Of a stretch of 64,000 bases of DNA, positions 63,001-64,000 are shown one piece after another; positions within the stretch are counted from its first letter, which is position 1, and every line of letters begins with the position of its first letter. The stretch covers positions 2,418-66,417 of the forward strand of contig JABHLG010000007.1 in the NCBI GenBank assembly GCA_018692915.1, in the 5' to 3' direction. This DNA comes from Candidatus Woesearchaeota archaeon. Lineage in GTDB: Archaea > Nanobdellota > Nanobdellia > UBA10117 > JABICX01. The position numbers were made by a program.

Positions 63001-64000
63001 TCCCTGAATTACCGTAACTTGATTCTCAACTTTATTCAGTTTAATATTCTGTTTCAGAAGCTCGACTGAATCAGGATTTAGTTCAATAGCCCACACTTTG
63101 GCAGGAGTTAGCTTAGCAATTGGAATTGTAAAATAACCAATTCCCGCAAACATATCCAATATCTCTTCGTTTGGTAACGATCGGAGTCGTTCACGATATA
63201 ACCTTCGTGAACTCCTGTCCTTATCCCGAAGAGCATATTTTCGCTCAGCGTCCTTAATCTGGCTTACAATTCTTCGCTTTTCTTCTTGATTACCTTTTGA
63301 AAACATAACTTTAGAAATATCAACTAGAAACTCGCAGTAGTTTTCCTTGACCTTTGTAAGTGTGTTTCTCTCACCAGCTAGCCACTCAACTTGTGGCTTT
63401 CTTAGCTTGCCAGATATCTTACCTTGATAATAAACTGACTTAAACTGACTATGTTTTTTTAGAATCTCTTGCGCAACTTGCTTATCTTTCTGTTTAATTA
63501 AACAAATCTGACCAAGTGCTTGAAATGACTTTGGTATTGTCATAAAATCAACTGCAATTGCAATATAAAAATTTATTTAAAAGTTATATATAATTTTCGA
63601 GGATTACATGGAAAACAAACACCAACGCTAGGTAAATTAGATAATGCTTCTTTACTAAAATATTCAGAAAGCATAATTCCATTTGTGTCTAAAATACCAA
63701 CATTAATTTCTTTAAGATTTTCTTTGCATGTCGGACAGACTAATTGACCATCAGTCAATATCTCTGCTTCAGGGTTATATCTATTTTTACGTCGATATAA
63801 TCTAAGTGTGATTGTTTTAATTTCAGGATTATCATCTATTGTGCTAATTTTATCCATATAATTACTTAGTAATATATGTTATAAGACTTTCTTTAAGAGA
63901 AATTATTCATAATAATGATTGAATATTGCCTTTTATTTTACGAGGAAAATCTCCAACACCCATAAAAAAATGACTATCACTTAATCTTCGTGCATCTTCT

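What the first reader, a model, noticed from the sequence alone, without database searches (positions are those of the whole stretch)
63163..63234. The same element sits in frame inside a Trm5/Taw2-like methyltransferase gene
Exactly 72 nt (24 codons, ALRDKDRSSRRLYRERLRSLPNEE) are inserted just before SAM-binding motif I (ILDMFAGIG). Relatives that I recall have only a short KxGE-type linker at this position. The insert is a full family 1 element with its own closing stem, extended by flanking AAUAU/AUAUU pairing. It has no stop codon in frame, so it may be translated as an Arg-rich loop. That would parallel Rickettsia palindromic elements, which insert in frame into ORFs. I could not fit a BHB motif, and 71 nt is not a multiple of 3, so endonuclease splicing looks unlikely. 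A third option is that it marks a boundary splitting the gene into two cistrons, with an ATG 11 nt downstream.
Basis: partly seen in the sequence, partly recalled or inferred. Interest (0 to 1): 0.65.

Follow-up and report, generated by a model that had tools for sequence, protein, structure and literature searches.

The report
Mobile hairpin repeat inside Taw2 gene
A 71-base hairpin-forming repeat that normally sits between genes in this tiny archaeon has landed in frame inside a tRNA-modification gene, where it most likely adds a 26-residue basic loop, as some mobile repeats do in Rickettsia genes.

Summary
Window 63163-63233 (- strand) is a full copy of a 71-nt structured repeat (covariance-model E about 1e-20). 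The window has three other copies, and eleven more distinct copies occur in related Woesearchaeota-like contigs. Its stems covary strongly: 12 of 18 pairs show compensatory changes and 94% of cells are paired. The host gene is a Taw2/TYW2 methyltransferase. In 105 of the 106 best homologues that could be scored, the linker before SAM motif I is exactly 14 residues. Here it is 40, a 26-codon (78-nt) insertion rather than 24 codons. One other orthologue (P0004) carries a short variant of the same repeat four codons upstream, apparently from an independent event. A third copy extends the C-terminus of an unrelated protein. All three intragenic copies keep the frame and lack stop codons. Intergenic copies fill stop/start junctions that are empty (-4 and +2 nt) in a sister lineage, so the element behaves as if mobile. 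No in-frame BHB intron fits, and the downstream ATG is the conserved motif-I Met. The best reading is an RPE-like, translated in-frame insertion of a new archaeal repeat family. Translation and enzyme activity are inferred, not shown. Interest is moderate.

The parts
62731..63543 (-). Host gene: Taw2/TYW2-type (Trm5 superfamily) SAM-dependent tRNA-modifying enzyme, 270 aa, intact ORF
   Evidence: Pfam PF02475 at E 9e-46 (matched in two stretches) and PF25133 TYW2_N_2 at E 9.6e-9. The best solved relatives are Taw2 MJ1557 and PH0793, E about 1e-33, aligned as residues 6-92 and 122-269 with the insert left out. The AF2 model has pLDDT 89.9, and the top Foldseek hits are aTrm5 and TYW2.
63163..63233 (-). 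71-nt structured repeat element (full copy, long variant)
   Evidence: cmsearch 91.9 bits, E 1.1e-20, model positions 1-71 of 71; repeat families D4, D5 and D9.
63166..63243 (-). Insertion relative to orthologues: 26 codons (R101-E126, RKYALRDKDRSSRRLYRERLRSLPNE; 8 Arg, 2 Lys, 2 Asp, 2 Glu). The boundary can be slid by 3 nt because GAG flanks both sides.
   Evidence: Protein alignment; codon-level comparison with the empty sites in L013 and L015; linker-length census; residue composition.
63234..63243 (-). 10 extra nt (CGAAAATATG) 5' of the element. They are part of the insertion and resemble the 3' stem plus start-codon context of intergenic copies. Origin unresolved.
   Evidence: Read directly from the sequence. 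Compare the L009 flank GCGAAAGAAATATG.
63227..63233 (-). P1 closing stem, 5' strand (CUCUUCG)
   Evidence: Pairs with 63163-63169. P1 is 97% paired across copies, and 5 of its 7 pairs show compensatory changes.
63163..63169 (-). P1 closing stem, 3' strand (CGAAGAG); encodes part of N125-E126-E127
63183..63218 (-). Conserved core. ACA (63216-63218); P2 GGAG (63212-63215) pairs with CUCC (63183-63186); 3-nt bulge CGA (63187-63189); P3 hairpin (63190-63211) with loop AGGUUAUA (63197-63204).
   Evidence: P2 is invariant and P3 covaries at 7 of 7 pairs. The geometry is listed in the BHB scan.
63151..63153 (-). ATG = Met131 of motif I (LDMFAGIG). This is an ancestral codon, not a new start.
   Evidence: M131 is nearly invariant and D130 invariant in the alignment of 20 orthologues.
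2463..2533 (-). Family copy filling the junction between a Fer4-like gene (stop 6 nt upstream) and a DUF1858-like gene (ATG 3 nt downstream)
   Evidence: cmsearch E 3e-18; context. The orthologous junction in L020 has only a 2-nt spacer.
14878..14996 (-). Family copy between carbamate kinase and ornithine carbamoyltransferase. It carries a 46-nt nested insert (14916-14961) in the apical loop.
   Evidence: cmsearch E 2e-14; context. In L020 the two genes overlap by ATGA. The orthologous copy in L021 lacks the nested insert.
37476..37546 (-). Family copy between a small HMA-like gene and a 507-aa gene. AGGAGG sits 7 nt before the ATG.
   Evidence: cmsearch E 6.5e-20; context.

Best explanation
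A small non-autonomous repeat landed in the 14-residue linker of Taw2. The repeat is 71 nt, with 61-62-nt short variants. It folds as a rod-like hairpin: a 7-bp closing stem, a conserved internal loop, an invariant 4-bp GGAG/CUCC helix with a 3-nt CGA bulge, and a variable apical hairpin. It spreads among gene junctions of Woesearchaeota-like DPANN genomes. The linker it hit joins the N-terminal domain to strand beta1 (SAM motif I) of the Rossmann fold.

The insertion totals 78 nt, and the frame being read (element frame 2) has no stop in this copy. The ORF therefore survived. The mRNA is most likely translated straight through, adding a 26-residue Arg/Lys-rich segment, modelled as a helical hairpin, on the side of the fold away from the cofactor site. 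The enzyme probably stays functional.

Shown: family membership, covarying structure, absence from orthologues, empty sites, frame preservation, and recurrence in other ORFs. Inferred: mobility mechanism, translation, and retained activity.

Elsewhere the element sits in sense orientation between a stop codon and the next start. Copies that precede ORFs have acquired a Shine-Dalgarno-like G-rich tail. This indicates that the element is transcribed within mRNAs and is accommodated by the host after insertion.
For: - **Family and structure.** 15 distinct copies at E 1e-11 to 1e-21. 94.2% of cells are paired and 12 of 18 pairs show double changes; 0 of 500 shuffles reach this, and slid controls give 41-49% paired.
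- **Insertion.** The linker is 14 aa in 105 of 106 scorable homologues, 36 aa in P0004 and 40 aa here. Empty sites are seen at DNA level in L013 and L015.
- **Independent second hit.** P0004/L004 carries a 62-nt variant 4 codons upstream in the same frame. The NJ tree puts the window next to insert-free P0001 and P0002, with P0004 outside them.
- **Third intragenic copy.** L020 7229-7299 is read in frame 2 and gives a tail of about 29 aa that is absent from 6 homologues.
- **Frame preservation.** A random insertion would be ORF-compatible with probability about 0.15, which is about 0.003 for three out of three.
- **Mobility.** The junctions occupied in the window are -4 nt (ATGA overlap) and +2 nt in sister lineage L020. 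There are no copies in 30 kb around the P0003 orthologue. The core is nearly identical in unrelated loci (window versus L006).
- **Gene looks alive.** All invariant residues are kept. dN/dS is 0.06-0.12 against orthologues. The identical allele is on at least 23 contigs from independent assemblies.
- **Model.** pLDDT is 89.9 overall and 62-65 in the insert, with helices at 83-106 and 112-120.
- **SD-like tails.** They occur only in copies just upstream of ORFs (Mann-Whitney p = 0.009).
- **Precedent.** In-frame RPE insertions are documented (PMC10969869), and a Woesearchaea genome is among the most MITE-dense archaeal genomes (PMC11602168).
Against: - There are no transcript, proteome or activity data, so read-through translation and retained function are inferences.
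- The fetched population is clonal (100% nt identity). Nothing therefore shows purifying selection after the insertion.
- The copy is close to consensus, so it may be recent.
- The insert has only moderate model confidence and lies 3 residues from motif I.
- No transposase was found, the only terminal inverted repeat is the 7-bp stem, and there is no general target-site duplication. 'Mobile' therefore rests on presence/absence only.
- The strict sense orientation, the invariant core and the compensated P3 changes between orthologous copies (window 14878 versus L021) hint at a host or RNA function that pure selfishness does not explain.
Confidence: 0.75

Rival explanations
1. The gene is effectively inactivated. 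The insertion is recent and the ORF is intact only because decay has not yet happened, so the extra 26 residues next to motif I disable Taw2.
For: The copy is the third-best scoring in the family, which fits a young copy. The population is clonal. The insert has pLDDT 62-65. DPANN genomes do lose modification pathways (general knowledge).
Against: Three of three intragenic copies in three genes or lineages keep the frame and avoid stops (about 0.003 by chance). That argues selection filters for functional products. All invariant residues are intact. The insert lies at the N-terminal end of beta1 in an inter-domain linker, on the side opposite where Rossmann folds bind cofactor (established fold knowledge).
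Confidence: 0.12
2. The element is removed from the mRNA, either by the archaeal tRNA-splicing endonuclease at a BHB or relaxed BHB motif or by another processing activity, so the mature message encodes an orthologue-like protein.
For: The organism has intron-rich tRNAs (172-nt tRNA locus). The element core (3-nt ACA, the 4-bp GGAG/CUCC helix, the 3-nt CGA bulge, then a helix) has the geometry of a half BHB (HBh'). DPANN endonucleases are known to accept relaxed motifs (general knowledge).
Against: No strict hBHBh' motif encloses the element with an in-frame length. The only in-frame strict candidate (114 nt) has 2-3-bp flanking helices and would delete conserved residues. A relaxed 72-nt candidate has no inner helix, has two G-U pairs in H, and competes with the much stronger P1. 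Cutting at the HBh'-like core removes 29 nt here and 19-20 nt in L004, which shifts the frame. Opposite ACA there are 3 unpaired nt, so that side is an internal loop and not a bulge. Frame preservation in all intragenic copies would be unnecessary if the element were spliced out.
Confidence: 0.04
3. The element splits Taw2 into two cistrons. As at ordinary junctions, it marks an intercistronic boundary, and the methyltransferase domain is made separately from the ATG 9 nt downstream.
For: In 9 of the 15 copies an ATG follows the element within 1-5 nt. An ATG is present 9 nt downstream here.
Against: There is no stop codon before or inside the element in the Taw2 frame. The ATG is the conserved motif-I Met, and starting there would drop the invariant Asp130. 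The tail at the SD position is CCAAA, as in the other copies that do not sit just upstream of an ORF, and not G-rich. P0004 has Cys in place of this Met yet carries the element in the same linker.
Confidence: 0.04
4. This rival concerns what the family is, and it can be true together with the best explanation. The repeat would be primarily a host-used RNA module at cistron junctions rather than merely selfish DNA. Possible roles are a hairpin that keeps stop and start codons adjacent for coupled translation, a processing or stability signal bound by a protein that recognises the invariant core, or a carrier of a TATA-like AAGGTTATAT promoter. The coding copies would then be by-products.
For: All intergenic copies are in sense orientation next to the downstream gene. 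The core is invariant while the stems covary freely. There are three compensated pair changes between the orthologous copies at window 14878 and in L021. The G-U variation at the J1-J2 pair fits pairing on the sense strand. One copy lies 4 nt upstream of a tRNA gene whose neighbour is divergent, so a promoter must lie in or near the element.
Against: Sister lineages do without it at the same junctions. The apical loop is dispensable, as shown by the short variants and the nested insert. Compensated differences could also arise by conversion from other copies. There is no match to any Rfam family.
Confidence: 0.25
5. This is an ordinary lineage-specific protein loop whose nucleotide similarity to the intergenic repeats is coincidental.
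For: None beyond the fact that the peptide is plausible as a surface loop.
Against: E 1.1e-20 over the full 71-position model. The covarying stems are preserved inside the ORF. The linker length is invariant in the other homologues.
Confidence: 0.01

Closest known systems
Rickettsia palindromic elements (RPE) inserted in frame into ORFs (as reviewed in PMC10969869)
   Same: A dispersed hairpin-forming repeat occurs both between genes and inside unrelated housekeeping genes. Intragenic copies keep the reading frame and add a peptide at a position compatible with the fold. Orthologues lack the insert.
   Different: The host is archaeal (DPANN) rather than alphaproteobacterial. The element is half the size (71 nt against roughly 100-150 bp) and has no sequence relationship to RPEs. 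Most copies sit exactly at stop/start junctions in sense orientation. The stems covary around an invariant core.
Prokaryotic MITEs, including the archaeal MITE census in which a Woesearchaea genome ranks among the densest (PMC11602168; PMC10969869)
   Same: Small, multicopy and non-coding on its own. It shows presence/absence between lineages, is mostly intergenic with a minority intragenic, and its termini are inverted repeats (the 7-bp P1).
   Different: There is no general target-site duplication and no identified parent IS. The terminal repeats covary instead of being conserved as a transposase-binding sequence. The orientation bias is strict.
REP/BIME elements and IS200/IS605-derived palindrome-associated elements, which are moved as single strands by Y1 transposases (my own knowledge)
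   Same: Recognition depends on a hairpin, there is no TSD, insertion is strand-biased, and the elements lie between co-directional genes inside operons.
   Different: There is no GTAG or CGTC tag. A single long rod replaces separate left-end and right-end hairpins. No RAYT or TnpA gene was seen in the DNA examined. No conserved target tetranucleotide was found beyond A-rich 3' flanks.
Archaeal BHB introns in protein-coding genes, such as the crenarchaeal cbf5 intron (my own knowledge)
   Same: Extra RNA lies inside an archaeal ORF. The core has a 4-bp helix flanked by a 3-nt bulge and a helix.
   Different: The second bulge and outer helix are missing. The predicted excised length is 29 nt and would shift the frame. 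The unspliced ORF is already in frame.

Membership tests
Taw2/TYW2 (Trm5 superfamily) - host gene | TRM5/TYW2 methyltransferase domain plus the TYW2 N-terminal domain, with Taw2 structures as the closest solved relatives | tested here: met
   PF02475 at E 9e-46 and PF25133 at E 9.6e-9. 3a27 and 3a25 (Taw2) score E about 1e-33, against about 1e-25 for Trm5. Foldseek TM 0.72-0.80 to aTrm5 and TYW2.
Taw2/TYW2 (Trm5 superfamily) - host gene | Intact SAM motif I (DxFxGxG) and the family-invariant residues | tested here: met
   The 34 invariant columns include the window protein, for example D130, F132, G134 and G136.
RPE-like in-frame palindromic repeat insertion | The inserted DNA is a member of a dispersed, hairpin-forming repeat family | tested here: met
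   cmsearch E 1.1e-20; 15 distinct copies; 94% paired with 12 of 18 covarying pairs.
RPE-like in-frame palindromic repeat insertion | The host ORF stays open across the insert and orthologues lack it | tested here: met
   Two further intragenic copies behave the same way.
RPE-like in-frame palindromic repeat insertion | The insert lies at a surface or linker position compatible with the fold | tested here: inconclusive
   The AF2 model places it as a helical hairpin (residues 83-106 and 112-120) between the N-terminal domain and beta1, with pLDDT 62-65. No coordinates were available to measure exposure.
RPE-like in-frame palindromic repeat insertion | The insert is actually translated and the protein is functional | not testable with these tools
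   This needs proteomics or biochemistry.
RPE-like in-frame palindromic repeat insertion | Sequence homology to the Rickettsia RPE families | not tested
   No RPE library was at hand. The host is archaeal and the size differs, so homology is not expected. The claim is 'works like', not 'is a member of'.
MITE | Terminal inverted repeats | tested here: inconclusive
   The 7-bp P1 is a terminal inverted repeat, but its sequence covaries among copies. That is not what a conserved transposase-binding site would do.
MITE | Target-site duplication flanking each copy | tested here: not met
   The mean longest shared flank word is 4.5 nt against 4.2 in the control. Only window 14878 has an adjacent 8-nt repeat, AAAATGAA.
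MITE | A parent autonomous IS with matching ends | not tested
   No separated 5' and 3' halves were found in about 270 kb of held sequence. Whole genomes were not available.
Archaeal BHB intron | An hBHBh' (or relaxed) motif placing both splice sites so that excision restores the frame | tested here: not met
   The scan finds that the element's HBh'-like core would excise 29 nt, which shifts the frame. It finds no credible in-frame strict motif.
Any curated RNA family (Rfam 15) | A match at or near the gathering score | tested here: not met
   Only a tRNA is found in the window at gathering threshold. The best hit on the element region is T-box at 10.8 bits against a gathering score of 93.

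The most novel reading that the evidence does not exclude
The repeat would be a mobile RNA module that the host uses, not just junk that happens to be readable. A protein would recognise its invariant core: the 4-bp GGAG/CUCC helix, the 3-nt bulge and the conserved loops, which together have half-BHB geometry. That protein might be the broad-specificity splicing endonuclease of DPANN archaea or another RNA-binding factor. The module would organise processing or coupled translation at cistron junctions. The same sequence would then serve as an RNA signal and, in three genes, as protein-coding sequence. The repeated hits in the Taw2 linker would reflect targeting or benefit rather than mere tolerance.
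Probability: 0.12. Interest if true: 0.75.

Novelty: new member of a known kind. Interest (0 to 1): 0.5.

Why it matters
The result extends the 'selfish DNA inside protein-coding genes' phenomenon, known from Rickettsia palindromic elements, to ultra-small DPANN archaea. It defines a previously uncurated structured repeat family with clear covariation. It also gives a concrete, testable case with three ORF-compatible insertions, two of them independent hits 12 nt apart in one enzyme linker. That case can be used to study how mobile repeats create new protein segments in streamlined genomes. For annotation, it warns that such repeats can be mistaken for lineage-specific protein loops or for split genes. 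It also identifies junction elements that reshape operon spacing in these genomes.

Tried and rejected
- **Rfam.** The gathering search on the window and on 7 loci, and the E-value mode on the element, found nothing but tRNAs and a spurious T-box hit.
- **ARAGORN.** It finds no tRNA in the window or in L002. It misses the intron-containing ones that Rfam detects.
- **Genome-contig scan.** A strict loop-containing pattern gave 3 loci, of which only the Woesearchaeota one (L002) is real. That pattern was too narrow.
- **Viral-contig scan.** No hits.
- **RNA classes considered and dropped.** A tRNA-like fold was dropped because, despite the 7-bp closing stem and 71 nt, there are no D or T arms. 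H/ACA and C/D guide RNAs were dropped because the would-be guide loops are identical in all copies and there is no fixed ACA or box motif. A K-turn was dropped because only L002 shows tandem G-A pairs next to the bulge.
- **Strand assignment from wobble pairs.** P1-P3 is uninformative (4 G-U against 5 A-C). Only the J1-J2 pair suggested by RNAalifold shows five one-sided G-U changes.
- **Target-site duplication and target motif.** No general duplication and no conserved target motif.
- **Single ancestral insertion shared with P0004.** Rejected. The host flanks are not collinear (QI|ins|KDGEEVLD against QIKDAE|ins|EILD), and the tree would require many precise losses.
- **L005 and L011 as further in-frame insertions.** Not counted. 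In both, a better start codon lies inside or after the element.
- **Unavailable DNA.** DNA for P0001, P0005 and P0125 could not be fetched because the sample file is too large.
- **Population polymorphism.** None is available, because the assemblies are identical.

Full report
**What is at the coordinates.** The - strand ORF 62731-63543 encodes a 270-aa protein. It has the TRM5/TYW2 methyltransferase domain (PF02475, E 9e-46) and the TYW2 N-terminal domain (PF25133, E 9.6e-9). Its closest solved relatives are the Taw2 proteins MJ1557 and PH0793, at E about 1e-33. They align as two blocks, query residues 6-92 and 122-269, which skips exactly the region in the finding. The peptide ALRDKDRSSRRLYRERLRSLPNEE precedes ILDMFAGIG as described.

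**The repeat family is real.** The repeat finder links 63161-63244 with 2461-2544, 37474-37557 and, in two pieces, 14871-14999. All are in the same orientation. Pattern scans of public contigs brought in related copies: one from a Candidatus Woesearchaeota MAG and eight metagenome loci.
- A covariance model built from 11 copies finds 15 distinct copies in the DNA I held, at E 8e-12 to 3e-21. The Taw2 copy (63163-63233) is the third best at 91.9 bits.
- The fold is a rod. A 7-bp closing stem P1 is followed by an internal loop with conserved AUAAGGACA and GnnCGUUAC, then an invariant 4-bp helix GGAG/CUCC, a 3-nt bulge CGA, and a variable hairpin P3. P3 is capped by AAGGUUAUA in long forms (71 nt) or by a tri- or tetraloop in short forms (61-62 nt).
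- 94.2% of cells are paired, and 12 of 18 pairs show changes on both sides. This includes all 7 pairs of P3 and 5 of the 7 in P1. No shuffle out of 500 reaches these values, and sliding the partners drops pairing to 41-49%.
- No Rfam family matches.
- The refuting condition 'similarity insignificant in a formal alignment' is therefore not met.

**It is an insertion.** I measured the distance between the GNxxE(K/R) motif and DxFxGxG in the 120 best Taw2 homologues.
- It is 14 residues in 105 of the 106 that could be scored, 36 in P0004 and 40 in the window protein.
- Codon-level comparison with two orthologues gives the empty site...AAA GAC GAA GAA GAC GTA CTC GAC ATG in L013 and ...AAG AAA CCA GAA CAA GTA TTG GAC ATG in L015. 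The window reads AAG GAC GCT GAG [78 nt] GAG ATA TTG GAT ATG.
- The insertion is therefore 26 codons (R101-E126, 63166-63243). It consists of 10 nt (CGAAAATATG) plus the 71-nt element, with the element's last GAG coinciding with a host Glu codon.
- The refuting condition 'distant orthologues carry a homologous peptide' is also not met.

**It recurs.** P0004 (contig L004) has NSAFADKDRSDISRRLRALQKQ between QI and KDGEEVLD. Its DNA is a 62-nt short variant with the canonical P1 CUUUUGC/GCAAAAG, read in the same element frame.
- Its host flanks are not collinear with those in the window, and the site is four codons upstream. In an NJ tree the window protein groups with insert-free P0001 and P0002, while P0004 branches outside a clade of about a dozen insert-free orthologues. 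Two independent insertions 12 nt apart is the economical reading.
- A third intragenic copy lies at L020 7229-7299, inside the 3' end of a 354-aa ORF. It is again read in element frame 2 (FVHKDRSLPRSYGKRLRKLQIRK) and runs to a TGA that overlaps the next gene's ATG. Six homologues end about 29 residues earlier.
- Across the 15 copies, frame 0 is open in 10, frame 1 in 2 and frame 2 in 8. A random insertion would be ORF-compatible about 15% of the time, so three out of three has a probability of about 0.003. Selection has evidently filtered intragenic copies for an intact product.

**Where the element normally lives, and why I call it mobile.** Eleven of the 15 copies lie upstream of genes in sense orientation.
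- Most fill the whole space between the stop codon of one gene (1-10 nt upstream) and the ATG of the next (1-5 nt downstream).
- One copy lies 4 nt upstream of an intron-containing tRNA gene.
- In the sister lineage (L020), carbamate kinase and ornithine carbamoyltransferase overlap by ATGA, and the Fer4 and DUF1858 genes are 2 nt apart. In the window those two junctions hold the copies at 14878-14996 and 2463-2533.
- L021 (OTC 82% identical) has the orthologous copy, with the same unusual P1 CUUUCAC/GUGAAAG. It lacks the 46-nt nested insert of the window copy, and it shows three compensated pair changes in P3.
- No copies occur in 30 kb around the P0003 orthologue.
- The core of the Taw2 copy is almost identical to that of L006 at an unrelated locus.
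- I found no general target-site duplication, no separated halves that would suggest an autonomous parent and no transposase, so the mechanism of spread is unknown. The hairpin dependence, the lack of a TSD and the strand bias resemble single-strand (IS200/REP-type) mobilisation. That resemblance is only a lead.
- Copies directly upstream of ORFs carry G-rich, Shine-Dalgarno-like tails in the unpaired stretch just before the 3' strand of P1 (AGGAG, AGGGG, CAGGG, TAGAG). The intragenic copies, the tRNA-adjacent copy and the copies farther from a start codon keep CMAAA-type tails (p = 0.009). This suggests that the element is transcribed in sense within mRNAs and that hosts adapt it after insertion.

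**Fate of the Taw2 copy.**
- *Splicing.* A scan for BHB geometry finds no strict motif that encloses the element with a sensible in-frame length. The element's own core has half-BHB geometry (ACA, the 4-bp helix, the CGA bulge, then a helix). However, three unpaired bases lie opposite ACA, and excision there would remove 29 nt (19-20 nt in L004) and shift the frame.
- *Two cistrons.* There is no stop before the element. The ATG 9 nt downstream is the nearly invariant motif-I Met, preceded by the invariant Asp. P0004 has Cys at that position. The tail of this copy is CCAAA, not SD-like.
- *Read-through.* The ORF is intact and all family-invariant residues are present. dN/dS against orthologues is 0.06-0.12, although dS is saturated and this covers the whole divergence. 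The exact 270-aa protein is on at least 23 contigs from independent assemblies, and the four I fetched are identical at DNA level, which rules out an assembly artefact.
- *Structure.* AlphaFold2 gives a confident Trm5/Taw2 fold (pLDDT 89.9; Foldseek TM 0.72-0.80 to aTrm5 and TYW2). In it, the conserved helix before the linker is extended (residues 83-106), followed by a turn (DKDRS) and a return helix (112-120) before beta1. The insert scores pLDDT 62-65.
- *Position and charge.* The N-terminal end of beta1 is on the side of a Rossmann fold opposite the cofactor site (established fold knowledge), so a protruding basic hairpin is plausible as a tolerated feature. It has 8 Arg and 2 Lys against 4 acidic residues.
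- *Conclusion.* Translation through the element is therefore the most likely outcome. It is inferred, not demonstrated. A recent insertion that has silently disabled the enzyme cannot be excluded.

**Comparison with what is known.** The behaviour matches Rickettsia palindromic elements and other MITE-like repeats that fuse in frame with host ORFs (PMC10969869). A census of prokaryotic MITEs already lists a Woesearchaea genome among the most MITE-dense archaea, and finds about 11% of archaeal MITEs to be intragenic (PMC11602168). This family differs in several ways: its small size, its covarying termini, the absence of a TSD, its strict sense orientation at stop/start junctions, and its invariant core. 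It is not related in sequence to any curated family I could test. I file it as a new member of a known kind, an in-frame palindromic-repeat insertion in a DPANN archaeon, not as a new category.

**Open points.** What moves the element? Does the invariant core bind a protein? Does the orientation rule reflect function or insertion mechanism? Do the two hits in the Taw2 linker reflect targeting of purine-rich sequence or simply the only permissive spot in the protein?

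Noticed in passing
window 53029-53200 (-): This 172-nt tRNA locus is detected only by Rfam (38.1 bits) and missed by ARAGORN. It appears to carry two intervening sequences, one in the D-loop region and one after the anticodon region. That fits a DPANN-type archaeon with non-canonical tRNA introns.
   Followed up: partly
window 14916-14961 (-), inside the repeat copy 14878-14996: A 46-nt insert is nested in the apical loop of the repeat, flanked by an apparent TA duplication (GGUUA[46 nt]UAUAUC against the consensus GGUUAUAUC). 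It is unique in the window and absent from the orthologous copy in L021. It may be a second, unrelated small mobile element.
   Followed up: partly
L020 7229-7299: A copy of the repeat forms the last ~29 codons of a 354-aa hypothetical membrane-associated protein. Its stop codon overlaps the next gene's ATG, and homologues lack the tail.
   Followed up: yes
L002 2549-2758 (-): A repeat copy lies 4 nt upstream of an intron-containing tRNA gene, and the neighbouring protein gene is divergent. The tRNA promoter must therefore lie in or near the element, whose loop AAGGTTATATC resembles an archaeal BRE/TATA. Just upstream there is also a short hairpin, CCUUUUGUG...CACAAAAA, resembling a solo P1 stem. 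In this copy alone, tandem G-A pairs next to the CGA bulge give a K-turn-like arrangement.
   Followed up: no
protein P0001 (closest Taw2 orthologue, 84% identity; DNA not retrievable): It lacks the linker insert but carries a different 18-residue insertion (ISCKRNNASKSQSDLCSF) after the conserved MGY. Other orthologues have no such insertion, and it is not encoded by this repeat in any frame. It may be another element family hitting the same gene.
   Followed up: partly
window 30471-30758: A long imperfect tandem repeat with a period of about 18-21 nt (T/G-rich on the + strand). It probably lies inside a coding region on the - strand.
   Followed up: no
window 13987-14874 (-): Beyond the close archaeal relatives, the next-best homologues of the ornithine carbamoyltransferase (about 55% identity) are mostly from Omnitrophota bacteria. 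This hints at inter-domain transfer of the arginine deiminase-pathway genes.
   Followed up: no
L005 3509-3570 and L011 2665-2735: ORF callers would extend the downstream genes through these repeat copies, because element frame 2 is open and an ATG lies just upstream. The likelier start codons lie inside or after the element. The repeat can therefore create spurious N-terminal extensions in annotation.
   Followed up: partly
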